Both the position numbers and the translations under genes were made by a program. From Chromatiales bacterium (lineage in GTDB: Bacteria; Pseudomonadota; Gammaproteobacteria; RBG-16-57-12), in NCBI GenBank assembly GCA_026989455.1, contig JALSJH010000059.1:784-64783 (forward strand): DNA of 64,000 nt, written 5' to 3'. Below are positions 7,855 to 35,776 of this stretch, piece after piece (positions within the stretch are counted from its first letter, which is position 1; each line of letters starts with the position of its first letter). Below the pieces are notes generated by a model, which made no database searches, had not been told where the DNA came from, and worked only from the letters and a program-made list of their open reading frames with translations.

Positions 7855-8772
7855 TCACTTGGTATGACAGGTGAGACACAAGGCGCTTTCGGCGTTTGAG
7901 ATCCGTAAAAAACTTGGAATGAACTCACTGGTTGGCCCTGCCGATGGCACACCATGGGGGTCATGACAAGAGGCACACTCCACCTCATAGCCCTCCCCCG
8001 TATTGTACATGCGAATTTCGTTGGTATCACTCCGGCCATTTCCATTGATATCAAAAAAGCTTAATTTCCCAGCCTGAATGCCCGTAGGTATCCTAAAGTC
8101 GACGCCCGCGCCAAGGGTGGTGGGATATTCCACGCCGATGGGGTGGTCATTACGTAGATCAGTACTGATGAAAAAGGCTGAAAAATCGGCCATTCCCAGC
8201 GAAGGAAACATCGGTGGTGTGCCATGGCAGCGGTTGCAGTCTGAGGCGGTGCTACCAAACATAACCGCGTGGTTGCCACCGCTAGGGCCTGGCCCACTCC
8301 AGCTATCGAGAAAGGCCATATCAACACTGCTCTCCTGAGCGGGGTTATAACCACCCGAGCCGGGCATGTTGATCACCGAGTCTATGGCGATGGTGCCATC
8401 GTGACAAGAGAGGCAGGTTAACGAATTAGCCCCAGGGTCGGTGATAGTCTGGCCTAGGGTGGTGGGCATGTCGTAGAGTGTATAGGGATCCGACGGGCGG
8501 GTTCTGTTCCAAAGTGGTATCGCCCCCATCTGGCCGCTGGCTCCATGGGGGGTGTGGCAGTAGACACATACGGCATCATAGTCGTTGCGATAGGCGTTCA
8601 TGAACCCTTCCATGTCTGAGTAGCGCTGGGTCAGGTTATGCCCGGTGTTGGCTACCGTGGTATGGTTGGGTGCCTTGGAGGCCGCACGCCAGCCATCAGC
8701 AGAGGCTACTGAAATCAATAGCAGAGTGCTGATTGTAACGAGCAGTACCAAAGAGCTACGGGTGAATCGCAT
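7855..8772 (-). CDS. Secreted pentaheme c-type cytochrome
   Basis: Signal peptide followed by five CxxCH motifs (CVYCH, CLSCH, CNRCH, CASCH, CLTCH). Paralogous to the ORF at 32782-33633. Monocistronic and divergent from the histidine kinase gene. Confidence 0.8.
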   Translation of the reverse strand: MRFTRSSLVLLVTISTLLLISVASADGWRAASKAPNHTTVANTGHNLTQRYSDMEGFMNAYRNDYDAVCVYCHTPHGASGQMGAIPLWNRTRPSDPYTLYDMPTTLGQTITDPGANSLTCLSCHDGTIAIDSVINMPGSGGYNPAQESSVDMAFLDSWSGPGPSGGNHAVMFGSTASDCNRCHGTPPMFPSLGMADFSAFFISTDLRNDHPIGVEYPTTLGAGVDFRIPTGIQAGKLSFFDINGNGRSDTNEIRMYNTGEGYEVECASCHDPHGVPSAGPTSEFIPSFLRISNAESALCLTCHTK

Positions 8773-11540: not shown

Positions 11541-11600
11541 ATATTGGGTGGGGGCTGTTTAGGTGATAATGAGCACACTAACATATCAGCATTAAAAAGG

Positions 11601-14453
11601 ATGTTACACATGTATAACCCGCGAAAAGGTACCTTGTTTTACCCGTTTTTAATCGCTGCGCTACTGCTCTCCATAACCCTGCTTAGTGGCTGTGGTGGGG
11701 GTGAAGAGAGTGTTGCTGAGGGTGCGCCGGAGACGTTGCAGGAGGAGGCCATCATCGCAACATCCAAGATTTCTGGTTATGTTCTGGTAGCGAGTCTCCC
11801 GGTCAATGACACAACAGTGCAATACACATACCAGGCTTCTTTTGATAATGGTGACTTTCCAGCAAGCCAGGTGACGGCTCGCATTACCGAAACTCCGGAT
11901 GGCATCATCCTCATTGATGGTACCTTGAGCTTCAGTAATGTGGAAGCCAGTGGTCGCCAAGTGAGTAACAAGCACTTTGTTATTCAACGTGATCTTAGTA
12001 AGCCATTTCATGTTAATGACCTGATTTGGGCTATTGAGGCTCAGCGTGAAGCCAGCCTAAGTTTTGATGCTGAACAGTATGAGCTGCGGATGGGGGTTGG
12101 CGAGACCCGCGATGTCAGTTACCAGCTATTGGCGTTCAATCCGGATACGGTGGCTACTGGGCTGAGTTTGCGGGAAGAGGTTGATGCGGCTGTGCAGCTG
12201 AGCAGCCGTAATAGCGGCGTAATTAGTTTGACCCCAGGTAGTAGTCGTTTTCGGCTTAGCCAGAGCATCACCTCCCTGACTACCGGTCGTTTTGAATTGA
12301 CCCTTACCGCTACTTTGCCAAGTACTGGCTTGGAGCAGAGCGTGCGCATCAATATTATTGTTGAAGCCGATTTGGATGGCGATGGTGTGCCTGATGAGAT
12401 TGATCTGTGTGCCTTTAGTATCTTGGGTGACTCCGTCGATAACAGTGGTTGTGCGGCAACCGATGTGGTTGATAGCAGCGCCTTTCGTGACTTGCAGATA
12501 GGTGAGACCACCTTTCGTGTGCAAGAGAATAATCTCGAAGAGCAATACTCAAACGGCATACTCACCGGGTTGCAGGCCAGTGGCTCACTCTTACTACTGA
12601 CCCCTCTCGGTGATATTGTATTGAAAGAGGCTGAGCTTGTTTTTGAGTATGGTACATCCGGGATGGGTGGTATCGAGCGTCTACGGGGTACTGCACAAGT
12701 CCCCTTTCCTGATGTGGGTATGCTGGCTGATGCAGAGGTTGGTACACCGGTGATAGCGGATGTGGGCCTCGATTATGGCCGTAACTTGTCTGATCTTGAA
12801 GCACCGTTGGTAGATGATCGCCAATATCTGTTTTTCAACTTTAGTGCTGGCTTTGAGGCGAGTGTTGGCCCTATCAGTTTCGAAGCGCCGGGTGGCAAGG
12901 CGATTACCTTTGTTCTCGATCCGCTGGACCCCTTCTTTTTCTTCACCGGCGACCTGCCAGGGCTGTCTGATATCGGAGTAGAAGATCTTGGTATTGCCAT
13001 GTCACTGCGGGGGCTGATTCCCTTCACACCTGATACGACTTGGGGTATCGGTGATGATATCGGTAATTTTGATGCCAACCTCTATCTGCAAGGTGTCATT
13101 CCCTTTGCTCGTTGGCCGTTAAATCTTGATGGTTCGCTGGTGGTTGATGTGGATGCCAATGACGATGGGCAGACGCTGTTTAACAGCTTTACGCCAGATG
13201 TAGAGTATGGGGGCAATGGTACGCTCAATGTGGGTGTCGATTTCCTTAAGTTTTTCGGTTTTAGTTTCGAATTGGGCAGTGCCAGTCTGGGTATTAAAAT
13301 GACCAATGGTGAGCAGAATGCCTATTTTAGCGGCATGCTTGATCCCGACACCGATTTTTTGCCGCAAGAGTTGGTGCCAATTCGCCCCAGTGCCACGGTT
13401 AACATGGCGGGCCTTATCAGTGACGATATCGCCAAATCATTTTTACGTGGTGAGGGTGAGTTTAATCTCGATGCTTCAACACTAGGGCGCTTGGTGGGCA
13501 TCAATCTTAATAACCTCAGTACGACAAGCGCAACATTCAGCGCTGACCGTGATGGTATAAACCTGACGGGCTATACACGCACCAGCATCTACCCTGATGT
13601 GGGTTTTGATGGGGATGCTCGGCTCAATGCCAATTTTACGGGGTCATTGACTAGCTGGAGTATCGATCTCAGCGGTGAGATGTCAATTGCCAATACCCCA
13701 ATCAGTGAAGGTCGGCTAGAGGTCAGTACAGCGGGCATGTTGGTGAGTGGTGAGTTTGTCACACCGTTGACCCGCATCGGGATGAACGGGCAGATTGATG
13801 CCAGTGGCATTGAAATGCGCGGTAATACAGGCATTACTATTCCGATCAGCGTGGTGGAGAGCGTGGTTGAGTGGGTGGTAGATGCCGCTATCTGCGGTAC
13901 TGAACGGGTGACTGATGCCGCACGGTGCGGCTTGGATTCAGTGACCAGCAGTGCAATTTGTGGCTACCAGGCCGTGACCAGCGCGGCTCAATGTGGTACC
14001 CGCACCGTGACCAGTGCGGTTCACTGTGGTACGAGCACCATTACCAGTGCCGCCAGATGTGGAACCAATTGGGTGACCGACATCGCAACGTGTGGCTGGA
14101 GTGTCATTACTGGGCAAGGGGGTTGCAGTGTTGCTAGGTCTTGCAGTGTTGCCAATAGCTGTAGTATCGCTAACACCTGTGATATTGCGAATACCTGCTC
14201 GATACCCGCAAGCTGTGATATTCCCCGTGGTTGTAACAACAGCACCAATGTCACGCTTCCAAAGGGTGAATTCCGTGGTGACATCGAACTGTTATTGGGT
14301 AATCAGGGTATCGGTGGTGAAGTGAGTGGTGACTACTGCTTTGCGGGTGACTGCACCACCCTTACTGGGGGACGAGTCAAGGCCGGTAGTAGTGGTCTGG
14401 AGGCATGTATAACCATCCCTGCGGGTATTGGTGAGGTGTGCGCGCCTATCTAA
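11601..14453 (+). CDS. Large lipoprotein with C-terminal Cys-Gly tandem repeat module
   Basis: Likely start at 11601 (MLHMYNPRKG, AAGGA RBS); the track ORF starts at 11544. Lipobox LLSGC. One TSP3-like Ca loop (DLDGDGVPDEID). The C-terminus has 7 x 11-aa repeats (AxCGxxxVTSA) followed by 6 x 6-aa repeats ([ST]C[SD][IV][AP][NR]). No recognisable enzymatic motif. Confidence 0.7.
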   Translation: MLHMYNPRKGTLFYPFLIAALLLSITLLSGCGGGEESVAEGAPETLQEEAIIATSKISGYVLVASLPVNDTTVQYTYQASFDNGDFPASQVTARITETPDGIILIDGTLSFSNVEASGRQVSNKHFVIQRDLSKPFHVNDLIWAIEAQREASLSFDAEQYELRMGVGETRDVSYQLLAFNPDTVATGLSLREEVDAAVQLSSRNSGVISLTPGSSRFRLSQSITSLTTGRFELTLTATLPSTGLEQSVRINIIVEADLDGDGVPDEIDLCAFSILGDSVDNSGCAATDVVDSSAFRDLQIGETTFRVQENNLEEQYSNGILTGLQASGSLLLLTPLGDIVLKEAELVFEYGTSGMGGIERLRGTAQVPFPDVGMLADAEVGTPVIADVGLDYGRNLSDLEAPLVDDRQYLFFNFSAGFEASVGPISFEAPGGKAITFVLDPLDPFFFFTGDLPGLSDIGVEDLGIAMSLRGLIPFTPDTTWGIGDDIGNFDANLYLQGVIPFARWPLNLDGSLVVDVDANDDGQTLFNSFTPDVEYGGNGTLNVGVDFLKFFGFSFELGSASLGIKMTNGEQNAYFSGMLDPDTDFLPQELVPIRPSATVNMAGLISDDIAKSFLRGEGEFNLDASTLGRLVGINLNNLSTTSATFSADRDGINLTGYTRTSIYPDVGFDGDARLNANFTGSLTSWSIDLSGEMSIANTPISEGRLEVSTAGMLVSGEFVTPLTRIGMNGQIDASGIEMRGNTGITIPISVVESVVEWVVDAAICGTERVTDAARCGLDSVTSSAICGYQAVTSAAQCGTRTVTSAVHCGTSTITSAARCGTNWVTDIATCGWSVITGQGGCSVARSCSVANSCSIANTCDIANTCSIPASCDIPRGCNNSTNVTLPKGEFRGDIELLLGNQGIGGEVSGDYCFAGDCTTLTGGRVKAGSSGLEACITIPAGIGEVCAPI
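13880..14240 (+). repeat. Coding tandem repeats (33-bp then 18-bp units) encoding Cys-containing peptide repeats
   Basis: Periodic protein sequence ICGTERVTDAA / RCGLDSVTSSA / ICGYQAVTSAA / QCGTRTVTSAV / HCGTSTITSAA / RCGTNWVTDIA / TCGWSVITGQG, then SCSVAN / SCSIAN / TCDIAN / TCSIPA / SCDIPR. Confidence 0.7.
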
Positions 14454-23588: not shown

Positions 23589-26426
23589 ATGCGCGATTGG
23601 ATTAATTTATTACTGGTTATTACCTTTTCATTGGTATTGGCCGCCTGTGGTGGCGATGGTTTGGGAACCTCCGGAACGACAGCCCAAGATCCGCCACCAG
23701 TGGCTGACCCAGATGCACCTGTTCCCACCTCAGATGCAACCAATATAACGCTATTGGTCAGTAGTCCGCAAATGCCATCAGACGGCTCAAATACAGTTAC
23801 CTTGACGGCGGTGGCACGAGATAACAGCAACAGGTATGTAGAAAACACTACCATTGAGTTCTCGGCATCATCCGGTGGTATTTTAACCGGTGAGCGCACT
23901 GCAACTAACTCTTCAGGGCGAGTCTCTGCAACGCTGGATATTGGTGGCGACCCCGCTAACAGAACAATTGTGGTTACTGCGGTTGATAGTGTAACCGGCC
24001 AGAGTGCTAATCGGTCAGTTGAAGTGAGGGACACGCGGTTTATCTTTTCCGGTCCTCAGCGTATTGAGGTGGGTGAGAGTGCTGAGTTAGTGGTGCAGTT
24101 AGTGGATGCTGGTGGTAACCCAATCACCTTTCAAAATATCACCTTGACCTCCTCTCAGGGTAATACCATACAAGCACCTACTGGGCTGGTTACTGATAGT
24201 ACCGGTCGTATTACAGTGACAGTACTTGGCGGGGTCGCGGGTTCTGATTTCATTACCGCCAGCGCTTTTGGTCTGAATGCTGATAACAGTACCTTTTCAC
24301 TGGATATTATCACTGCGGATGCCATTTCATTTTACTTCGACTTGCCGGTCGATAATGCTGAGATTGCATTGGGCACGAACGCTGCTTTTCGTGTCTGCTT
24401 GACGGATGGCGCAGCCGCTGTAGCGGCGGGAACCACCATTCAAATTTCATCTACCCGCGGAACCTTTGGTTCAAGTGGTGGAGCTGTTGCCTCTTACAGC
24501 TCGGATGGATTGGCAACTTGTTGGGATGATACGCTGTCCAACCAAGGAGCGGGCTTCGCTCAGGTATTGGCGACTACCTCCAGTGCTACAGTCGCTTATG
24601 ATGAGCTGAGTGCCTCAAAATTACTTGAGTTTATTTCAACCACTGTCAGCTTAGTTAATATACAAGCTGCGAAATCCATTTTGGAGCGCGGAGAGCAGAC
24701 TCAAATTGTCGCTACATTGCGTGATAGTCACTATAATTTGGTGAAAAATAGAACGGTCAGTTTTTCCATTGATGCCGATGCCAGTAATGGCAATCTTAAC
24801 CCCCCCACAGCGACCACCAACAGTAATGGGGAGGCAACAGTTGTCTATACTGCGGGGATGGCTAGCTCTGGGCTGTATGATGTTATTATCAAAGCAGAAG
24901 ATTATGAGTCGGGGCTTTTTTCAACCACAGAGCTTACGGTTCAAAATAGAGCATTGCATGTAGCGCTGGGTCGCGGTAATACTATGGCTAATTATGATGA
25001 TGGGTCCTTAACCTCCTACGCGCTACCTTATAGTGCCATCGTAACTGATTCTGCTGGGCAACCTGTTGCTAATCAGCCGATAAGCCTCTCCATCTGGTCG
25101 CATCGATATTTCAAAGGTAGTTACTACCCCACATACTCTCCAACCGGCGGTTTTATTCTCTATAGCAATGCACCAGTTGATGAGTATGAGTGGGATGTGC
25201 CCGGTGACGGTGTAATTAGTTGGGGGCGCGTGCTCAGTTGTGGTAATGAAGATACTGATTTTAACGGCATCGCAGACTTTAATGAGGACCTCAATAGAAA
25301 TAGAACTTTTGACCGGACAAATGAAGATCTGAATGGTAATGGTGTTATCGATTTAAGTGAGGATACCAATGCAAATGGTATTTTGGATATTCTTGAGGAT
25401 GCGAATCGAAATGGTATTTTAGATCCGGGTGAGGATCTTAATGGTAATGGTAAATTGGATGCCACTGAAGATATCAACCTCAATGGGGTGTTGGATGGTA
25501 GTGAAGATGTCAATGAAAATGGTATTTTGGATGTGCTCGAAGATACCAACCTCAATGGTCGATTGGATCCAGGCGAGGATTTGAATTTCAATGGTGTGCT
25601 AGATGCTACGGAGGATCTGGACGGCGATGGTTTCTTGACCTCGGAAGATATTAATCGCAACGGTATTTTGGACCCGGGTGAAGATACCAATGGTGATGGT
25701 GTGTTGACCACAGAAGATCTTAACGGCAACGGGGTGCTGGATGTCAGTGAAGATCTTAACCTCAACGGTGTGCTGGATTTTGGTGAAGACCTGAACGGTA
25801 ACGGTATCATTGATGTGAGTGAAGACCGTAATTTGAATGGTTTTCTGGATGTGCTTGAAGATGCCAATAGAAATGGCGTGTTAGACCCGGGTGAAGACCT
25901 CAATGGTAATGGTCTTTTAGATCTTAGCGAAGATATTAATGGTAATGGTGTGCTGGATGTTGATGAAGACATTAATGGTGATGGCGTATTCTATGCCTAC
26001 GAGGATAGTAACCAAAATGGTATTTTAGACCCGGGTGAAGATCTGAATGGTGACGGTATTCTCAACCTTCCAGTAGATGTAGATGTGAATGGTAATGGCC
26101 GTCTTGACCCAGGCAATGTTGCGACAATTTCGGTAGATGACACTATTGGTGCCTTCTCAATCAACACCACCACTGATGAAAATGGTGTGGCTATCTTTGC
26201 AGTGATTTATGCTGAAAGTTTTGCAGGTTGGTTGGAGGTGTCACTTGAAGCGAGAGTGATCGTTGATGGTACTGAAAACTCGGACCGGACTCGCTTTATT
26301 TTACCGGCACTGGCCGATGACCTTAATCAGGAGGATACTCCCCCGGCAGGCTATGTTAGCCCCTTTGGTCGTGGTTATGATGTGCGTACTGGCCTGATTC
26401 AGGGTTGTACGGTGGACGAGATTTAG
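23589..26426 (+). CDS. Large lipoprotein with bacterial Ig-like domains and about 25 tandem EF-hand/TSP3-like calcium-binding loops
   Basis: Lipobox LVLAACGG. Several roughly 90-aa Ig-like (Big-type) repeats (TIVVTAVDSVTGQSANRSVEV and similar). From about residue 545 to 850, back-to-back 11-13 aa loops match D-x-N-x-N-G-x-L-D-x-x-E-D. Confidence 0.75.
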   Translation: MRDWINLLLVITFSLVLAACGGDGLGTSGTTAQDPPPVADPDAPVPTSDATNITLLVSSPQMPSDGSNTVTLTAVARDNSNRYVENTTIEFSASSGGILTGERTATNSSGRVSATLDIGGDPANRTIVVTAVDSVTGQSANRSVEVRDTRFIFSGPQRIEVGESAELVVQLVDAGGNPITFQNITLTSSQGNTIQAPTGLVTDSTGRITVTVLGGVAGSDFITASAFGLNADNSTFSLDIITADAISFYFDLPVDNAEIALGTNAAFRVCLTDGAAAVAAGTTIQISSTRGTFGSSGGAVASYSSDGLATCWDDTLSNQGAGFAQVLATTSSATVAYDELSASKLLEFISTTVSLVNIQAAKSILERGEQTQIVATLRDSHYNLVKNRTVSFSIDADASNGNLNPPTATTNSNGEATVVYTAGMASSGLYDVIIKAEDYESGLFSTTELTVQNRALHVALGRGNTMANYDDGSLTSYALPYSAIVTDSAGQPVANQPISLSIWSHRYFKGSYYPTYSPTGGFILYSNAPVDEYEWDVPGDGVISWGRVLSCGNEDTDFNGIADFNEDLNRNRTFDRTNEDLNGNGVIDLSEDTNANGILDILEDANRNGILDPGEDLNGNGKLDATEDINLNGVLDGSEDVNENGILDVLEDTNLNGRLDPGEDLNFNGVLDATEDLDGDGFLTSEDINRNGILDPGEDTNGDGVLTTEDLNGNGVLDVSEDLNLNGVLDFGEDLNGNGIIDVSEDRNLNGFLDVLEDANRNGVLDPGEDLNGNGLLDLSEDINGNGVLDVDEDINGDGVFYAYEDSNQNGILDPGEDLNGDGILNLPVDVDVNGNGRLDPGNVATISVDDTIGAFSINTTTDENGVAIFAVIYAESFAGWLEVSLEARVIVDGTENSDRTRFILPALADDLNQEDTPPAGYVSPFGRGYDVRTGLIQGCTVDEI
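25224..26139 (+). repeat. Coding tandem repeat (roughly 36-39 bp units) encoding the Ca-binding loop array
   Basis: Visible periodicity of GATxTxAATGGxAATGGTGTGCTGGAT-like units. The antisense ORF 25160-25972 is an artefact of this repeat. Confidence 0.7.
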
Positions 26427-31570: not shown

Positions 31571-31675
31571 ATGCCTCTATCTGCTGAATAGTTACGATTG
31601 CTTCTGGATAGGGTGGCCAAGGGTGTGAAAAGAGTTAGCCCTCACTTGAGGGCTAATCTACGAGCCGATCAGTGA

Positions 31676-32806
31676 CTACTGCTCTTTCTCTTTCATCTCT
31701 TTGCGGATTTTATCTCTATATTTCACGCCTAAATAACCATCTTGTGCTGTGATTGAGGCTGGCCTGAAGATGTCAATCTTTCGAAAAAACTGATCGGCAT
31801 AATAGATGCGACCATCTTCATCAACTTCTAACCCGGAAGGGAGCATGAAAGTACCTGGTCTACCATCGTTGCTGCGGCTGCCAATGAACAGAAGTAGCTG
31901 ACCCTCGGGGTTGAATATCTGGAAGTTGCCAAATGCCGAGTCACCAACATAGACGTTGTTATCTTTGTCTGTCGCAATTCCTTTTGGCCGTGAAAAGTTG
32001 CCACTGTAGCGTCCGGCAACACCGAATGTAGATATGAAGTCACCCTCTGCGGTGAAAGACTGGACACGGAAGTTGCCGCCATCCACAACGTAAACGGTTC
32101 CATCGGGTGCGGTGCTGACCTGAATGGGTAGATTGAAATCACCCGGTTTTTTACCACGCTCTCCGACAACTCTTTTGATTTCAAATGTCTCAGCATCGAT
32201 GACATACATGTGATGACGGGTGCTGCTAATGCCCCCGCTATCGATCACATAGAGGGTTTTTCCATCAGGGCTGACGGCGACACCCGATGGGCGGTCAAAG
32301 AGGGTTCGTCCTTCCAGCTTGCGCTGGTATTCACCCTCTTCATTGTATACTTTTATACTTTTATCTGTGATGTCAGCTACATATAGATTGCCATCCGCGT
32401 CGATGTCGATTCCTAGCGGTTTTAGCAGCATGCCAGGCCCCTCTTTTACACCGATAAAAGAGGTCTTCCCTCTGGGTACATCGAATAAAATGACGGCACG
32501 CTGAACGGTGTCAGTTACATATATTTTCCCTTTTCTGACTGCGATACCAAAAGGTTTTGCCAAGCCTGTTGTGCTTTCAGTGGAACCGGTTGCCAGAAAC
32601 TTGAATTTCATTGCGGCCGTTACATCTGCAATGCTGGCACCGCTGTAGATGGTTCGTTCATATATGAATCTAGGGTCTTCTGGAGGGTATTGCGGTGGTT
32701 TGAATTCGGGGCGGTTCTCGCTTGAGCAGCCCGTGAGGGCGGCCATGACGAACAGCAGTGAGAGCGCAAGGGTTGTTGTTATTATTTTGTGTGGCAAGTG
32801 TTGCAT
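31676..32806 (-). CDS. NHL-repeat beta-propeller lipoprotein
   Basis: Lipobox LTGC. Six NHL-like repeats (GIAVRKGKIYVTD, GIDIDADGNLYVAD, GVAVSPDGKTLYVID and others). Its start overlaps the upstream cytochrome gene by about 25 bp, indicating an operon. Confidence 0.75.
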   Translation of the reverse strand: MQHLPHKIITTTLALSLLFVMAALTGCSSENRPEFKPPQYPPEDPRFIYERTIYSGASIADVTAAMKFKFLATGSTESTTGLAKPFGIAVRKGKIYVTDTVQRAVILFDVPRGKTSFIGVKEGPGMLLKPLGIDIDADGNLYVADITDKSIKVYNEEGEYQRKLEGRTLFDRPSGVAVSPDGKTLYVIDSGGISSTRHHMYVIDAETFEIKRVVGERGKKPGDFNLPIQVSTAPDGTVYVVDGGNFRVQSFTAEGDFISTFGVAGRYSGNFSRPKGIATDKDNNVYVGDSAFGNFQIFNPEGQLLLFIGSRSNDGRPGTFMLPSGLEVDEDGRIYYADQFFRKIDIFRPASITAQDGYLGVKYRDKIRKEMKEKEQ

Positions 32807-33633
32807 AAAATTTCTCTTCTCACCGTTAGTAGAAGTTCGTTGGTTGAGTTGTGTACATCATGGCAAGATGCACACTCTATATTTCCATCGTAAAGGCGAA
32901 CACCATTGCTGAAACCTGCTGGATCCAATGGGAGCTTAAAGTCGCGATCTCGCCAGTTGAACCCGCCATACTGAATGGATATCGGGTGTTCATCTGAGAG
33001 GTCGGTGCCCAATACTTTCGGGGAAATATCGTGTGCGGCCTCTCCATCATGACATGTGCCGCAGCTGTCTAAATCTTTCGCGCTGTTCATGCGCATGTGC
33101 ATCGCAGCATCATCTTCACTCCTAAAGCTGCCAGGTGTGAAGAGCACCATATCCATTGCCATGGTGCCATCGTGGCATGAGAGGCAGAGCAAACTAATGC
33201 TGGACGGGGTGCGCAGCGGCGCATCGAGGCTGGGTGATGTGTAGGGTGTGTATTGATCGGCTGCGGGTGCAAAACGGTTCCAGCCTGCAATGCCCCCCAA
33301 TAGCTCACTGTCGGTATCGGCCTCTTCTGGCGGCAAGTGGCAGTAGACGCAGGGGTTTCCGTAGTCAGAAAAAGCAACCCCTGCCATTGCATTAACCCCG
33401 GCACGCTCATTGAGGCCAGTGAAGTCATGCTTTGAACCCATGATCGGATCATTCAGGCCAATGACCGGGTCAGCTATAATACCGACTGTCGCCAAAGCCT
33501 GTGATAGCCCGAAGGCTGATGCAATGACAGCAGAGAACAGTAGCAAATGCTTTCTACCCAAGGGCATATGAAATTTTAGAGAGTCTTTTAAGTTCATTTT
33601 GTTCCATTTTTTTTTGGGCATAATTAGCCGCAA
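32782..33633 (-). CDS. Secreted pentaheme c-type cytochrome (paralog of 7855-8772)
   Basis: Five CxxCH motifs (CVYCH, CLSCH, CGTCH, CASCH, CNTCH) in the same order, with the same flanking residues (LxCLSCHDGT, DHPI, ECASCHDxH, C-terminal CxTCHTK) as the other copy. The signal peptide suggests the real start may be the internal Met at about 33567. Confidence 0.8.
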   Translation of the reverse strand: MRLIMPKKKWNKMNLKDSLKFHMPLGRKHLLLFSAVIASAFGLSQALATVGIIADPVIGLNDPIMGSKHDFTGLNERAGVNAMAGVAFSDYGNPCVYCHLPPEEADTDSELLGGIAGWNRFAPAADQYTPYTSPSLDAPLRTPSSISLLCLSCHDGTMAMDMVLFTPGSFRSEDDAAMHMRMNSAKDLDSCGTCHDGEAAHDISPKVLGTDLSDEHPISIQYGGFNWRDRDFKLPLDPAGFSNGVRLYDGNIECASCHDVHNSTNELLLTVRREILCNTCHTK

Positions 33634-34021
33634 CCTTATCCCTCTTTATCGGCAAATTGCGCCAATATTGAAGCATCTTAATAAATTGGTGCGCCATAGT
33701 CTATGCCCAGCATTAAACTAACGTAAAAATGGGTGCTAATTTTGGGTTGAGTGTCCTTCATTTATTAGACTTTTTTCAAGTAGAGGCCGTTATGTTACCC
33801 TGTCCGCGTGGTGGTTCATCACATTGTGATTTTTCAAGAATCTGTGGATATTTCAGGGTGCGAAAAGGATTGAAAATGAGAGATAGCCGACGTTTTTTAT
33901 TGCTGAGCCGAGTACAGCGCCTCTACTATCCTGTCGGATCAGTTGGCCTGACCGGCCAACCCTTCGGACAACTCCGTGGTATTCCACTTTGGCGTTATAG
34001 CCCTTGCCAAGGGAGTAACCA

Positions 34022-34987
34022 TTGCCTGCGAGCTATGCCTTGATGCTAAATACCACAAAATCGCTGATCCAACAGTATAGTAGGGTCGCTGTACTAGCCT
34101 GGCTCACGTTGTTAGCTCCGGCCATTGCAGCAGAACCCAGTAAAAATATTTTAGAGCTGCCCGCAGAAGTTCAATTAAACACTCTTACACATATACCTTT
34201 GAGTGAAAGTGAGGTGCGCACCAAGGTGGAGTATGCGCATCGTCTTTTTGATATGAGTCTCGCTAAACGAATTTCTAGCAGTCATCATGAGCAGGCAATA
34301 ATGTTGCTGGAACAAGCGCATGCGCAGGCTGATGCTGCACAACAAGCGCTTGCTAACGGTGCACTGTCTGAGGCTGATGATTTGGTGAATCAGTGCTATC
34401 GCAGCATAGCCATCGCTTCGACGCTGGTGCCCAGCGAGCACCAGCGTGCTCTTGCAAAAACAACGCACTCGAGCATGGTTGAAGGGTTGGCTCACGCCAA
34501 GGAACTCCATGCAAAGGCTTACCAGCGAGTGGCTGAAATCAGTCAGCATGTTAAGTTTGACGCGGAAGCCGTTTATCAACTTGAACAGTTGGCGATGAGT
34601 GAGGTGGTTGATAATAATTACCAAGAGGCCAATCGACATTTGCGGCAAGCTCGAATGCTGGTAGACCTTGCTACCATGAAGATGCTAGATAATCAGACCG
34701 TTACCTATCACGTTGATGTCAGCACACCAGCGCTGGAGTATCAATATGAGGTGGGGCGTTTTCGCAGTTACGAAGAGCTTATTCCGGTAGCCATTGAGAT
34801 GAAAAAGCCCAATAAAATGCAGTTGATGTTGATTACTCGAAAGGTGGATGAAGGCTTGTGGAAGGCTGAGCAGGCACAAATCACGGCAGATGCGGGGGAT
34901 TACCCCAAGGCCATCCGTATGGTGATGGATGCCTCTGTTGATATTCGCAGGGGCTTGAAGCTGATGAAAGTAAAGCTCTATGAATAG
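34022..34987 (+). CDS. Hypothetical secreted alpha-helical protein
   Basis: A signal-peptide-like segment (VAVLAWLTLLAPAIAA) after an internal Met at about 34043. The remainder is helical and rich in A/E/Q, with no known motif. Confidence 0.5.
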   Translation: MPASYALMLNTTKSLIQQYSRVAVLAWLTLLAPAIAAEPSKNILELPAEVQLNTLTHIPLSESEVRTKVEYAHRLFDMSLAKRISSSHHEQAIMLLEQAHAQADAAQQALANGALSEADDLVNQCYRSIAIASTLVPSEHQRALAKTTHSSMVEGLAHAKELHAKAYQRVAEISQHVKFDAEAVYQLEQLAMSEVVDNNYQEANRHLRQARMLVDLATMKMLDNQTVTYHVDVSTPALEYQYEVGRFRSYEELIPVAIEMKKPNKMQLMLITRKVDEGLWKAEQAQITADAGDYPKAIRMVMDASVDIRRGLKLMKVKLYE

Positions 34988-35008: not shown

Positions 35009-35776
35009 CTATAAGCACTTACCCACAGATTGTGGCTTGCAGCGTTTCCGGTTTGGCCAGATGGCATTGCCAAGGATCGCATCATCGAGAATGACATCGC
35101 TCAGGTCAGCAGTGCTGAAATCAGCACCCGTTAAATTTGCACCGGTCAGATTGGCATCCATGAGTGAGGCGCCTTGAAACTTGGCTTTGGTAAAATCACT
35201 GTAGCTGAGGTCGGCACCGTCTAGCTTGGCTTTATTGAAGTTGGCAAGCTTTGCTTGGCTGTTATTTAACTTGACCCTCTTTAGGTTGGCCTGTTCTAGG
35301 TTGGCCTCTGTTAGGTTTGCGCCGCTGAGCGTGGCTTGGCTAAGATTGGCGCTATAGAGGCGGGCCTTTTGCAGACGAGCATTTTCTAGATTAGCCTTTT
35401 TTAAAACAGCCCGATCAAGTCGTGCTTTCTGTAGTTTGGCACCGCTAAGATTGGCACCCGTAAAATCAGCACGTACAGCGTGGCTGTAACGCATGGCAGC
35501 ATTGCTAAGGTTACTGCCGCTGAGATTGGCGCGATCAAGGTCTGCACCTGTGAGATCGGCATCAGCAAGGTTGCTGTTTTTTAGGTTGCTGTTGAGTAGC
35601 AGGGCTTCGCTGAGGTCGACACCCGCTAAATCACGGCCACTGTGATCGCAGTCCATCCAGTTGACACCCGCTTGTGGTGGGTCATCACAACTGGCTACAG
35701 CAAGGTTAGTTGCCAATAACAGGAGAAGGGTAAGAGTGAGTCGCTGTTTAATTTTGTTATTCATTCCACCGCACAA
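35009..35776 (-). CDS. Secreted pentapeptide-repeat protein
   Basis: Signal peptide followed by about 35 consecutive pentapeptide repeats (A[DN]L[ST]x pattern such as ANLSGADLSEALLLNSNLKNSNLADADLTGADL). Confidence 0.75.
   Translation of the reverse strand: MCGGMNNKIKQRLTLTLLLLLATNLAVASCDDPPQAGVNWMDCDHSGRDLAGVDLSEALLLNSNLKNSNLADADLTGADLDRANLSGSNLSNAAMRYSHAVRADFTGANLSGAKLQKARLDRAVLKKANLENARLQKARLYSANLSQATLSGANLTEANLEQANLKRVKLNNSQAKLANFNKAKLDGADLSYSDFTKAKFQGASLMDANLTGANLTGADFSTADLSDVILDDAILGNAIWPNRKRCKPQSVGKCL

What the first reader, a model, noticed from the sequence alone, without database searches (positions are those of the whole stretch)
31676..33633. Operon coupling a pentaheme cytochrome to an NHL-repeat beta-propeller lipoprotein
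The cytochrome stop overlaps the NHL lipoprotein start by about 25 bp on the minus strand, implying translational coupling and 1:1 co-expression. NHL six-bladed propellers are protein-interaction or enzymatic scaffolds. A lipid-anchored propeller next to a soluble multiheme cytochrome would make a two-component redox complex that I cannot assign to a characterised pathway. The downstream secreted helical protein (34022-34987) and secreted pentapeptide-repeat protein (35009-35776) may belong to the same accessory patch, lying between argS-SPOR and pncC-recA.
Basis: partly seen in the sequence, partly recalled or inferred. Interest (0 to 1): 0.6.

Follow-up and report, generated by a model that had tools for sequence, protein, structure and literature searches.

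The report
OmcE-like five-haem cytochrome with propeller partner
This is a real, widely conserved two-gene operon: a five-haem relative of the Geobacter "nanowire" cytochrome OmcE, with the outer-membrane beta-propeller lipoprotein that accompanies such cytochromes; the pairing has been noted before, but its function is untested.

Summary
Window 32782-33633(-) encodes a Sec-exported cytochrome with five CXXCH motifs. Window 31676-32806(-) encodes a six-bladed NHL propeller lipoprotein. The two genes overlap by 25 nt.

The overlap is not a start-calling artefact. Only the ATG at 32806 or the TTG at 32797 leaves a usable lipoprotein signal peptide. The N-terminal 65 residues are conserved, and residues 47-53 form the strand that closes the propeller.

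The pair is adjacent in 63 of 64 related genome loci. The same 25-nt or 16-nt overlap occurs in 39 of about 60 loci where it could be parsed.

The cytochrome family is homologous to OmcE, the tetrahaem subunit of Geobacter nanowires (profile versus PDB 7TFS, E 9e-22). It carries one extra haem motif in a segment aligned to an OmcE loop region. The propeller is homologous to the lipoproteins that sit beside four-haem OmcE-like genes in porin-containing clusters.

Two papers already mention the parts. One is the Tenderiales "secondary cytochrome cluster". The other describes "5-haem OmcE-like proteins" as a possible new nanowire family.

No beta-barrel gene lies in this window. The neighbouring helical and pentapeptide-repeat genes are lineage-specific and not part of the module.

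Most likely the pair is an envelope electron-transfer unit with a non-catalytic propeller partner. Whether the cytochrome polymerises is unresolved.

The parts
32782..33633 (-). Pentahaem c-type cytochrome of the OmcE family, five-haem subfamily. It is Sec-exported and not a lipoprotein. The start codon is uncertain (TTG 33633, ATG 33621 or ATG 33597).
   Evidence: ORF. Five CXXCH motifs at 33337-33351, 33172-33186, 33049-33063, 32860-32874 and 32791-32805. Five further invariant His residues (H69, H179, H201, H216, H261) in 31 homologues. Pfam Paired_CXXCH_1 and Cytochrome_C7. Family profile versus PDB: 7tfs_A, E 8.8e-22; 9yuq_N, E 6.9e-14.
31676..32806 (-). Six-bladed NHL beta-propeller lipoprotein, predicted to be outer-membrane anchored. 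It is the cognate partner of the cytochrome.
   Evidence: Pfam NHL, E 6e-25. Lipobox LTGC at 32726-32737 with invariant Cys27 and Ser at +2. AF2 pLDDT 91.1, six blades, with N-terminal strand 47-53 closing blade 6. Foldseek top matches are TRIM2, TRIM3, TRIM71 and Thin NHL domains. 32% identity (8e-40) to the lipoprotein next to a four-haem OmcE-like gene in L076.
32782..32806 (-). A 25-nt dual-coding overlap. The last haem motif and stop of the cytochrome (L-C-N-T-C-H-T-K-stop) are read in another frame as the first eight codons of the propeller (M-Q-H-L-P-H-K-I).
   Evidence: Sequence. The same -25 overlap occurs in 29 loci and a -16 overlap (ATG formed by ACA-TGC) in 10 loci. The conserved N-terminal pattern M-x-[HNY]-[LM]-[PS]-x-[KQE]-[IVM] of the propellers is exactly what the alternative frame of LCxTCHxK-stop allows.
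31635..31656 (-). Terminator-like hairpin 20 nt after the propeller stop codon. It marks the end of the two-gene unit, which is convergent with the SPOR gene.
   Evidence: nine pairs, five of them G-C, loop of four, T-rich tail. This is a consensus match only.
33634..34021 (.). A 388-bp AT-rich region upstream of the cytochrome gene. It is the presumed promoter and regulatory region, shared divergently with the helical-protein gene.
   Evidence: GC 0.42. No convincing sigma-70 match on the minus strand in this interval. GAGGG Shine-Dalgarno sequence before TTG 33633.
7855..8772 (-). An unlinked paralogous five-haem OmcE-like cytochrome (305 aa). In many relatives its orthologue lies directly downstream of the propeller gene.
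   Evidence: ORF with five CXXCH motifs. About 50% identity to the third gene of the cytochrome-propeller-cytochrome arrangement in L003 and L019. That three-gene arrangement is seen in 13 loci.

Best explanation
The two genes form a compact cytochrome-propeller module of the OmcE type.

Shown:
- The cytochrome belongs to a large family homologous to OmcE, the tetrahaem subunit of Geobacter nanowires.
- It keeps the four OmcE haem motifs and three of the four conserved distal histidines (KHD, DHP, VH).
- It has an inserted segment with a fifth CXXCH and two new histidines.
- The propeller belongs to the same family as the lipoproteins encoded next to four-haem OmcE-like genes in clusters that also hold a large putative outer-membrane barrel.
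- The two genes are almost always adjacent and usually overlap.

Inferred:
- Both proteins are exported by Sec.
- The propeller is acylated and sorted to the outer membrane (no Asp at +2).
- There it acts as a non-catalytic docking, chaperoning or assembly partner that holds or positions the cytochrome at the outer envelope.
- The cytochrome is a chain of five bis-His haems, one probably solvent-exposed. It relays electrons between the outer-membrane or extracellular side and periplasmic carriers.
- In most relatives those carriers would be the two divergently encoded tri-haem class I cytochromes. This fits electron uptake in chemolithotrophic Gammaproteobacteria such as Ca. Tenderia.

Open: whether the cytochrome polymerises like OmcE or works as a monomer or short oligomer.
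For: Homology of the cytochrome:
- Profile of 31 family members versus PDB: 7tfs_A (232 aa, deposited as 'Cytochrome c') E 8.8e-22; 9yuq_N (16 chains, 'Putative multiheme cytochrome c') E 6.9e-14.
- That 7TFS is the G. sulfurreducens OmcE filament is my own recollection. It fits the 232-aa length and the gene GSU0618.
- That 9YUQ is the D. soudanensis OmcE bundle is inferred from the preprint read.
- Ten invariant His residues for five haems.
- The extra haem segment (about residues 158-205) falls between the two stretches that match OmcE and the D. soudanensis chain. That gap lies next to loops the preprint maps to the filament surface.

Linkage:
- Adjacency in 63 of 64 loci.
- Overlap of -25 or -16 nt in 39 loci.
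- Linkage extends to other phyla. In L076, L075, L062, L067, L069, L077 and L080, four- or five-haem OmcE-like genes sit beside NHL lipoproteins. In L062, L067, L069, L075 and L076 there is also a 520-680 aa ORF with no Pfam family. Four of these (L062, L069, L075, L076) were compared and are weakly homologous to one another.
- The L076 four-haem protein hits 7tfs at 1.2e-22. Its neighbouring lipoproteins match the window propeller at 8e-40 and 1e-39.

Literature:
- Minimal omcE clusters encode OmcE, two beta-propeller lipoproteins, a large barrel and two multihaem cytochromes. Five-haem OmcE-like proteins are predicted to keep the insulated four-haem chain plus one exposed haem.
- Ca. Tenderia has a conserved cluster with a pentahaem, an NHL protein and two tri-haem cytochromes. 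Its architecture matches loci L039, L047 and L049.

Propeller as scaffold:
- Invariant residues are the repeated blade motif.
- The best structural matches are binding NHL domains.
Against: - No putative barrel, PPIase or undecahaem homologue lies in the 64-kb window. None is in the usual gammaproteobacterial cluster either, so the route to the cell surface is unexplained.
- The usual neighbours are class I cytochromes, a thioredoxin-like lipoprotein and a CcmI-like protein. These have a periplasmic flavour.
- No physical interaction, localisation or expression data exist for this pair. The main text of the Tenderia transcriptome paper does not mention it.
- The AF2 model of the cytochrome failed (pLDDT 42), so haem geometry and exposure could not be checked here.
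- The window genome lacks the adjacent tri-haem cytochromes.
- One OmcE distal histidine (the TPH motif) is lost, so the haem wiring is not identical to OmcE.
Confidence: 0.6

Rival explanations
1. The pentahaem is the polymerising subunit of a new OmcE-like filament. It would have a 'leaky' wire with one exposed haem per subunit, either extracellular or periplasmic. The co-translated propeller lipoprotein would be its assembly or anchoring factor.
For: - OmcE homology.
- There are exactly two conserved His per haem, with no spare one. OmcE subunits show the same budget and donate one His to the neighbouring subunit.
- The N-terminal KHD motif is retained throughout the family.
- A propeller lipoprotein is a hallmark of omcE nanowire clusters.
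- Petersen et al. propose five-haem OmcE-like proteins as a possible nanowire family.
Against: - The second hallmark, a nearby large outer-membrane barrel, is absent from the window and from the usual gammaproteobacterial cluster.
- A ten-His budget fits a monomer equally well.
- The hosts appear to be chemolithotrophs rather than metal reducers.
Confidence: 0.22
2. The five-haem protein is an adaptor, tip or base cytochrome. It would couple a separate conduit or wire (Uet or OmcE-like, or Cyc2) to periplasmic carriers, with the propeller tethering it beneath the outer membrane.
For: - In L062 the pentahaem-propeller pair lies directly upstream of a Uet-like set: a tetrahaem, a SurA-like PPIase, a putative barrel, tri-haem cytochromes and two propellers.
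- In Nitrospirae loci L067 and L069, five-haem and four-haem OmcE-like genes share one cluster with propellers and a 522-aa putative barrel.
- In Tenderiales the pair's cluster follows the uet region on the chromosome.
- Divergent class I cytochromes are present in most loci.
Against: - No such conduit genes lie in this window.
- Co-occurrence at whole-genome level was not tested.
- This overlaps with the best explanation and differs mainly in requiring a separate conduit.
Confidence: 0.3
3. The propeller is the catalytic subunit of a periplasmic redox enzyme that oxidises or reduces a small molecule. The pentahaem would be its dedicated electron acceptor or donor, by analogy with propeller-plus-haem enzymes such as hydrazine synthase.
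For: - Partial Pfam hits to the SGL, arylesterase and Vgb-lyase propeller enzyme families.
- A weak sequence hit to the hydrazine synthase beta subunit, 5c2v_B, E 2e-7.
- Very high conservation of the propeller, with a mean column identity of 66%.
Against: - The enzyme-family hits cover single blades and reflect the repeat.
- Invariant residues recur at the same position in every blade, which points to a structural motif. The one non-repeat candidate, His198, also sits at a blade-motif position.
- No cofactor or metal-binding motif was found.
- The top fold matches are protein- or RNA-binding NHL domains.
- The same propeller family accompanies structural OmcE-type cytochromes.
Confidence: 0.1
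4. The overlap and pairing are artefacts: two unrelated neighbouring genes with a mis-called propeller start.
For: One NCBI record lists the orthologous propeller as a 310-aa product (MCF6217749.1). That most likely corresponds to a start at Met66 and would leave a gap after the cytochrome gene.
Against: - Residues 1-65 are conserved at the protein level. Cys27 is invariant, and P41, P42, R46, F47, E50 and T52 are at least 90% conserved.
- Strand 47-53 is part of the propeller fold.
- The pair is adjacent in 63 of 64 loci, and overlaps recur.
Confidence: 0.01

Closest known systems
OmcE nanowire gene cluster of Geobacter and Desulfuromonas (OmcE = GSU0618, PDB 7TFS; D. soudanensis DSOUD_2954)
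   Same: - The cytochrome is a sequence homologue (E 9e-22) with the four OmcE haem motifs and the KHD, DHP and VH histidines.
- A beta-propeller lipoprotein of the same family is encoded next to it.
- Both proteins are exported.
   Different: - Five haems instead of four.
- The TPH distal histidine is replaced.
- No large outer-membrane barrel, no second propeller and no deca- or undecahaem partner lies nearby.
- The hosts are uncultured, probably chemolithotrophic Gammaproteobacteria.
- Filament formation is untested.
'5-haem OmcE-like proteins', proposed as a possible new nanowire family (Petersen et al., bioRxiv 10.1101/2025.10.22.684050)
   Same: The description fits: OmcE-like sequence, similar length, one additional CXXCH, mostly from uncultured bacteria of several phyla. 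This window's protein is very probably one of them.
   Different: - The section read does not describe gene context for the five-haem proteins, and no accession list was available. Membership is therefore by description only.
- The tight, often overlapping pairing with a propeller lipoprotein and the lack of a barrel are added here.
[quoted passage not shown] Tenderia electrophaga and Tenderiales (Eddie et al. 2022, bioRxiv 10.1101/2022.05.06.490989)
   Same: - It holds a pentahaem plus an NHL protein.
- Loci from Ca. Tenderia MAGs (L039, L047, L049) carry orthologues of both window genes (57-59% and 48-50% identity) in a cluster that matches the published description.
   Different: The window keeps only the pentahaem-NHL pair. 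The two tri-haem class I cytochromes, the haem-containing c-di-GMP phosphodiesterase, the two Reg_prop propellers, the monohaem cytochrome, the thioredoxin-like protein and the CcmI-like protein are not in the window.
Uet (undecahaem electron transfer) cluster of Tenderiales and Gallionella
   Same: - It contains a tetrahaem cytochrome (UetA), two NHL propellers (UetH and UetI), a barrel (UetC) and a PPIase (UetB).
- L062 shows the window-type pair immediately next to such a set.
   Different: The window has no undecahaem, barrel, PPIase, c7-type tri-haem or cupredoxin gene.
NHL propellers in the outer-membrane cytochrome clusters of Desulfovibrio ferrophilus IS5 (DFE_448-451 and DFE_461-465)
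   Same: NHL-repeat propellers are co-expressed with multihaem cytochromes and were proposed to stabilise the cytochrome complex.
   Different: Homology to those particular proteins was not tested here. Those clusters hold larger cytochromes.

Membership tests
OmcE-family multihaem cytochrome (sequence family) | Significant sequence homology to solved OmcE subunits | tested here: met
   Profile A1 versus PDB: 7tfs_A E 8.8e-22, 9yuq_N E 6.9e-14. The match covers both the N-terminal and C-terminal halves.
OmcE-family multihaem cytochrome (sequence family) | Four CXXCH motifs and four conserved distal histidines (KHD, TPH, DHP, VH) at the OmcE positions | tested here: not met
   The four homologous CXXCH motifs and the KHD, DHP and VH histidines are kept. 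The TPH histidine is replaced by Pro. A fifth CXXCH plus H179 and H201 are inserted. This is a five-haem variant, not a canonical tetrahaem OmcE.
OmcE-type nanowire system (as delimited by Petersen et al.) | A beta-propeller lipoprotein encoded beside the cytochrome | tested here: met
   Lipobox, NHL repeats and AF2 propeller. Homologous to the lipoproteins beside the four-haem OmcE-like gene in L076.
OmcE-type nanowire system (as delimited by Petersen et al.) | A large outer-membrane beta-barrel gene nearby | tested here: not met
   tblastn with four mutually related candidate barrels (L076, L062, L069, L075) found nothing in the 64-kb window. None is in the usual gammaproteobacterial cluster. 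A barrel elsewhere in the genome cannot be excluded.
OmcE-type nanowire system (as delimited by Petersen et al.) | Polymerisation with inter-subunit His-haem ligation and a continuous haem chain | not testable with these tools
   AF2 without haems gave pLDDT 42. No multimer or haem-aware modelling was available.
Tenderiales secondary c-type cytochrome cluster | A pentahaem cytochrome and an NHL protein encoded together | tested here: met
   Window. Orthologues are in Ca. Tenderia loci L039, L047 and L049.
Tenderiales secondary c-type cytochrome cluster | Accompanying tri-haem class I cytochromes, a haem-containing c-di-GMP phosphodiesterase, sensor propellers and a thioredoxin | tested here: not met
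   tblastn with all cluster members from L001, L003, L019, L023 and L047 found only the cytochrome, its paralogue and the propeller in the window.
NHL-repeat six-bladed beta-propeller | NHL repeats folding into a six-bladed propeller | tested here: met
   Pfam PF01436, E 6e-25. AF2 pLDDT 91 with 24 strands in six blades. Foldseek matches to TRIM2, TRIM3, TRIM71 and Thin: TM-score 0.83-0.87 normalised to the target, E 1e-18 to 1e-22.
Bacterial lipoprotein (Lgt/Lsp/Lol pathway) | Signal peptide ending in a lipobox with an invariant Cys; the +2 residue decides sorting | tested here: met
   L-T-G-C27 with Ser28. Cys27 is invariant, and no Asp occurs at +2 in 32 homologues. Outer-membrane sorting follows from the E. 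coli +2 rule and is an inference.
Catalytic propellers (SGL/lactonase, arylesterase/PON, PAL, Vgb lyase) | Metal- or substrate-binding residues lining the central channel | tested here: inconclusive
   Only partial, single-blade Pfam matches. Conserved residues are blade-repeat positions.

The most novel reading that the evidence does not exclude
The five-haem protein is the subunit of a previously unseen conductive polymer in uncultured marine and hydrothermal Gammaproteobacteria. It would have an OmcE-like insulated haem chain plus one exposed haem per subunit. Its assembly or anchoring would depend only on the translationally coupled propeller lipoprotein, without a dedicated porin. The result would be either a periplasmic or outer-membrane-tethered wire, or a secretion route different from Geobacter's.
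Probability: 0.15. Interest if true: 0.75.

Novelty: new variant of a known kind. Interest (0 to 1): 0.45.

Why it matters
Cytochrome nanowires and outer-membrane conduits have been studied almost entirely in anaerobic metal reducers. This module shows that the OmcE fold and its propeller companion are widespread in uncultured Gammaproteobacteria, including the cathode-oxidising Tenderiales. At least 493 stretches in a collection of one genome per species (185,579 genomes) encode relatives of the cytochrome, counting distant ones.

The module is reduced to two genes, so it is a small, clonable system. It could be used to ask what the propeller lipoproteins of nanowire clusters actually do: chaperone, anchor or assembly platform. 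It could also show what a fifth, probably exposed haem adds.

The overlap has practical value for annotation. The first eight codons of the propeller are fixed by the last haem motif of the cytochrome. That gives a simple rule for calling the correct start, and one public record appears to call it too far downstream.

Tried and rejected
- AlphaFold2 of the cytochrome with a 31-sequence alignment gave pLDDT 42. No fold search was attempted on it, and the homology claim rests on sequence profiles.
- The afdb50 fold library was unavailable.
- The idea that invariant His198 of the propeller caps a haem was dropped. The residue sits at the repeated blade-motif position, and distant propellers vary there.
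- The helical and pentapeptide-repeat neighbours were tested as module members and rejected.
- NCBIfam gave only sub-threshold hits: ScyF for the propeller (150 bits against a cut-off of 350), and DmsE, NrfH and octahaem families for the cytochrome. All were rejected as family assignments.
- NrfB, MtrA and ActA-type pentahaem or decahaem assignments were considered. Only a weak C-terminal match to chain 6r2q_A was found (E 3e-6). I take that chain to be MtrA, although the PDB copy names it cystathionine beta-synthase.
- The OmcE structure paper (PMC9357133) and the Shen et al. 2025 osc-cluster paper were not held. The role of the Osc proteins is therefore cited second-hand from PMC13194489.
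- The main text of the Tenderia metatranscriptome paper has no data on this pair.
- No sigma-70-like promoter was found in the upstream intergenic region.
Full report

Two minus-strand ORFs occupy exactly the stated coordinates.

The upstream ORF, 32782-33633, encodes 283 aa counted from a TTG.
- It has five CXXCH motifs: CVYCH, CLSCH, CGTCH, CASCH and CNTCH.
- It has a Sec-type signal peptide and no lipobox.
- Pfam finds Paired_CXXCH_1 and Cytochrome_C7.
- Its start is uncertain. TTG 33633 has the best anti-Shine-Dalgarno pairing. Homologues are mostly 260-271 aa, which fits ATG 33597. The choice does not affect the mature protein.

The downstream ORF, 31676-32806, encodes a 376-aa protein.
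- It has NHL repeats (E 6e-25).
- It has a lipoprotein signal peptide ending L-T-G-C27.

The ATG at 32806 lies inside the cytochrome's last haem motif. The cytochrome stop TAA is at 32784-32782, so the overlap is 25 nt.

**2. Is the overlap a start-calling artefact?** No.
- The only other start that leaves a signal peptide is TTG 32797, which still overlaps by 16 nt.
- The next ATG (Met21) leaves six residues before the lipobox cysteine.
- One NCBI record lists an orthologue as a 310-aa product. That most likely corresponds to a start at Met66.
- Residues 1-65 are conserved as protein in 32 homologues of 50-90% identity. Cys27 is invariant, and P41, P42, R46, F47, E50 and T52 are at least 90% conserved.
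- In the AlphaFold2 model (pLDDT 91.1), strand 47-53 pairs with blade 6 and closes the propeller.
- Across related loci, the propeller start overlaps the cytochrome stop by 25 nt in 29 loci and by 16 nt in 10. Overlaps of 23, 4 and 1 nt occur in one locus each. About 13 loci have gaps of 9-116 nt.

The overlap is dual-coding. The invariant cytochrome ending L-C-x-T-C-H-x-K-stop, read one base earlier, can only give M-x-[H/N/Y/D]-[L/M/V]-[P/S]-x-[K/Q/E]-[I/V/M]. That is the conserved N-terminus seen in the propeller alignment.

A terminator-like hairpin follows the propeller stop at 31656-31635. The unit is therefore a two-gene operon. The overlap is consistent with translational coupling, but it does not prove 1:1 stoichiometry.

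**3. Is the pairing conserved?**

A scan of one genome per species with a profile of the cytochrome returned 80 loci, out of at least 493 matching stretches.
- In 63 of the 64 loci that encode close relatives (40-80% identity over the best segment), a homologue of the propeller lies immediately downstream on the same strand. L057 is the exception.
- The hosts are uncultured Gammaproteobacteria: MAGs labelled Chromatiales, Ectothiorhodospiraceae, Thiohalomonadaceae, Thiomicrorhabdus and Candidatus Tenderia. There are also two Azospirillum.
- All of these cytochromes have five CXXCH motifs, apart from one ORF (L059) cut short in the middle.

**4. What is it?**

A profile of 31 cytochrome homologues was searched against all PDB sequences.
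- The best hit is 7tfs_A (232 aa), E 8.8e-22. I recall this entry as the G. sulfurreducens OmcE filament.
- The next is 9yuq_N, E 6.9e-14. It has 16 chains, and I take it to be the D. soudanensis OmcE bundle of Petersen et al..

OmcE is a tetrahaem cytochrome that polymerises into extracellular nanowires. One haem per subunit is ligated by a histidine from the neighbouring subunit.

Alignment shows the following.
- The window family keeps the four OmcE haem motifs.
- It keeps three of the four histidines conserved in OmcE relatives: KHD = H69, DHP = H216, VH = H261.
- The TPH histidine is replaced by proline.
- A segment of about residues 158-205 carries a fifth CXXCH (C191-H195) plus invariant H179 and H201.
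- That segment falls between the two stretches that match OmcE and the D. soudanensis chain. The preprint maps adjacent loops to the filament surface.
- The family has exactly ten invariant histidines for five haems. This indicates bis-His ligation with no spare ligand.

Petersen et al. report PSI-BLAST hits described as '5-heme OmcE-like proteins' from uncultured bacteria. AlphaFold3 models of these keep the insulated four-haem chain and add one solvent-accessible haem. The authors call them a possible new nanowire family. The window protein fits that description.

**5. The propeller.**
- The AF2 model is a canonical six-bladed NHL propeller.
- Its nearest solved folds are the NHL domains of TRIM2, TRIM3, TRIM71, Thin and Brat, which are binding scaffolds.
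- The invariant residues recur at equivalent positions in each blade: [K/R]-P-x-G at the first strand and D-x-x-N/F-x-R/Q at the second and third. The conservation is therefore largely structural, and no cofactor motif is visible.
- Ser at +2, and never Asp in 32 homologues, suggests outer-membrane sorting. This is an inference from the E. coli rule.

The propeller is homologous to the lipoproteins in more complete clusters from other lineages.
- L076 encodes, in order: a four-haem OmcE-like protein (7tfs E 1.2e-22), an NHL lipoprotein (32% identity to the window protein, 8e-40), a 679-aa ORF with no Pfam family, a second NHL lipoprotein (1e-39), an 11-haem cytochrome and a 9-haem cytochrome.
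- This matches the minimal omcE cluster described by Petersen et al.: OmcE, two beta-propeller lipoproteins, a large barrel and two multihaem cytochromes.
- Similar sets occur in L062, L067, L069 and L075. The 520-680 aa ORFs of L062, L069, L075 and L076 are weakly homologous to one another.
- For the analogous OmcS system, companion proteins are proposed to act in folding and secretion (second-hand).
- For D. ferrophilus and Tenderia, NHL propellers were proposed to stabilise or organise cytochrome complexes.

**6. Context in relatives and in this window.**

In most gammaproteobacterial loci the pair lies in a larger conserved cluster.
- Upstream and divergent are two cytochromes, each made of three class I (cbb3 subunit III-like) domains, followed by argC.
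- Downstream there is either a paralogous five-haem OmcE-like cytochrome of about 335 aa, or a different set.
- That set holds a c-di-GMP phosphodiesterase with a periplasmic CXXCH, two Reg_prop propellers, sometimes a Kelch propeller lipoprotein, a monohaem cytochrome, a thioredoxin-like lipoprotein and a CcmI-like protein.
[quoted passage not shown] Tenderia electrophaga. Three loci come from Ca. Tenderia MAGs.

In the window only the pair remains at this site.
- tblastn with all other cluster members finds nothing. The exception is the paralogous pentahaem, which sits alone at 7855-8772(-) between a DAHP-synthase-like gene and a hybrid sensor kinase.
- No homologue of the candidate barrels, the PPIase or the undecahaem cytochromes is in the window.
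- The helical protein and the pentapeptide-repeat protein upstream are shared only with the closest relative, L081 (90% identical cytochrome; 87% and 93% identity).
- L001 (80% identity) keeps SPOR-argS-priA downstream, but has the two tri-haem cytochromes and argC upstream.
- The upstream side was therefore rearranged recently, and those two genes are not part of the module.

**7. How it most likely works.**

Shown:
- homology to OmcE;
- a five-haem variant with ten conserved histidines;
- a cognate propeller lipoprotein of the OmcE-cluster type;
- tight and often overlapping linkage;
- export signals on both proteins.

Inferred:
- The propeller is anchored in the outer membrane and acts as a non-catalytic partner that docks, chaperones or assembles the cytochrome.
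- The cytochrome relays electrons at the outer envelope.
- In relatives it probably relays them to or from the divergently encoded class I cytochromes, which would suit electron uptake in chemolithotrophs.

Confidence is 0.6 for this general statement. The stricter claim that the cytochrome forms a filament is possible but unproven (about 0.2). The propeller hallmark is met, the barrel hallmark is not, and haem-aware multimer modelling could not be run.

An adaptor role beside a separate conduit is suggested by L062, L067 and L069. There the five-haem gene shares a cluster with a four-haem OmcE-like gene and a putative barrel. A catalytic propeller is unlikely (about 0.1).

**8. Novelty and score.**

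The parts have been noticed before: the pentahaem plus NHL in Tenderiales, five-haem OmcE-like proteins, and propeller lipoproteins in omcE clusters. None has been characterised.

What this analysis adds:
- the link between those reports;
- the near-universal and often dual-coding linkage of the two genes;
- the absence of a barrel;
- a corrected start for the propeller.

I rate it a new variant of a known kind, with interest 0.45.

Noticed in passing
window 7855-8772 (-): A second five-haem OmcE-like cytochrome (305 aa, with signal peptide) sits alone between a DAHP-synthase-like gene and a hybrid sensor kinase. Its orthologues (about 50% identity) are the third gene of a cytochrome-propeller-cytochrome operon in 13 related loci. 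Unlike its partner at 32782-33633, it keeps the OmcE 'TPH' histidine.
   Followed up: partly
window 31676-32806 (-); protein P0241: An NCBI record (MCF6217749.1 / MCF6230426.1) lists a member of the same 90%-identity cluster as a 310-aa '6-bladed beta-propeller'. That most likely corresponds to a start at Met66, which would drop the lipoprotein signal peptide and the strand that closes the propeller. It is probably a mis-called start caused by the gene overlap.
   Followed up: partly
window 35009-35776 (-): The pentapeptide-repeat protein has a lipobox (A-V-A-S-C) followed by Asp-Asp. In E. coli that would mean retention in the inner membrane. It is conserved (93%) only in the nearest relative, L081.
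   Followed up: partly
window 34022-34987 (+): The 'secreted helical protein' has no Pfam or NCBIfam family. Comparison with L081 suggests it starts later than the listed TTG, probably at the ATG near 34043. It is 87% identical in L081 and absent from the 80 loci L001-L080.
   Followed up: partly
window 11544-14453 (+): A 969-aa predicted lipoprotein. Its C-terminal part holds about nine tandem 11-residue units, each with one Cys (...A-x-x-C-G-x-x-x-V-T-S...), followed by C-S/D-I-A-N-[ST]-C units. This is an unusual Cys-rich repeat of unknown function.
   Followed up: no
window 23589-26426 (+): A 945-aa predicted lipoprotein with dozens of tandem D-x-N-x-N-G-x-L-D-x-x-E-D units, which look like calcium-binding repeats. 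A long antisense ORF (25160-25972) is probably a by-product of the repeat.
   Followed up: no
L076 7120-8931; L062 1915-4239: The 11-haem cytochromes of the complete OmcE- or Uet-like clusters begin with an OmcE-like domain, including the KHD motif. They match the window cytochrome at 1e-12 to 1e-18.
   Followed up: partly
L062 4796-13584: In this Chromatiales MAG the pentahaem-propeller pair is directly followed by a Uet-like set: a four-haem OmcE-like protein, a SurA-like PPIase, a 594-aa putative barrel, two tri-haem cytochromes and two further NHL propellers. This may be an ancestral or combined arrangement.
   Followed up: partly
L047 9807-12275 and equivalents: The GGDEF-EAL protein downstream of the pair in many loci has a single CXXCH in its periplasmic N-terminal domain. 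This suggests a haem-based redox sensor that controls c-di-GMP next to the cytochrome genes.
   Followed up: no
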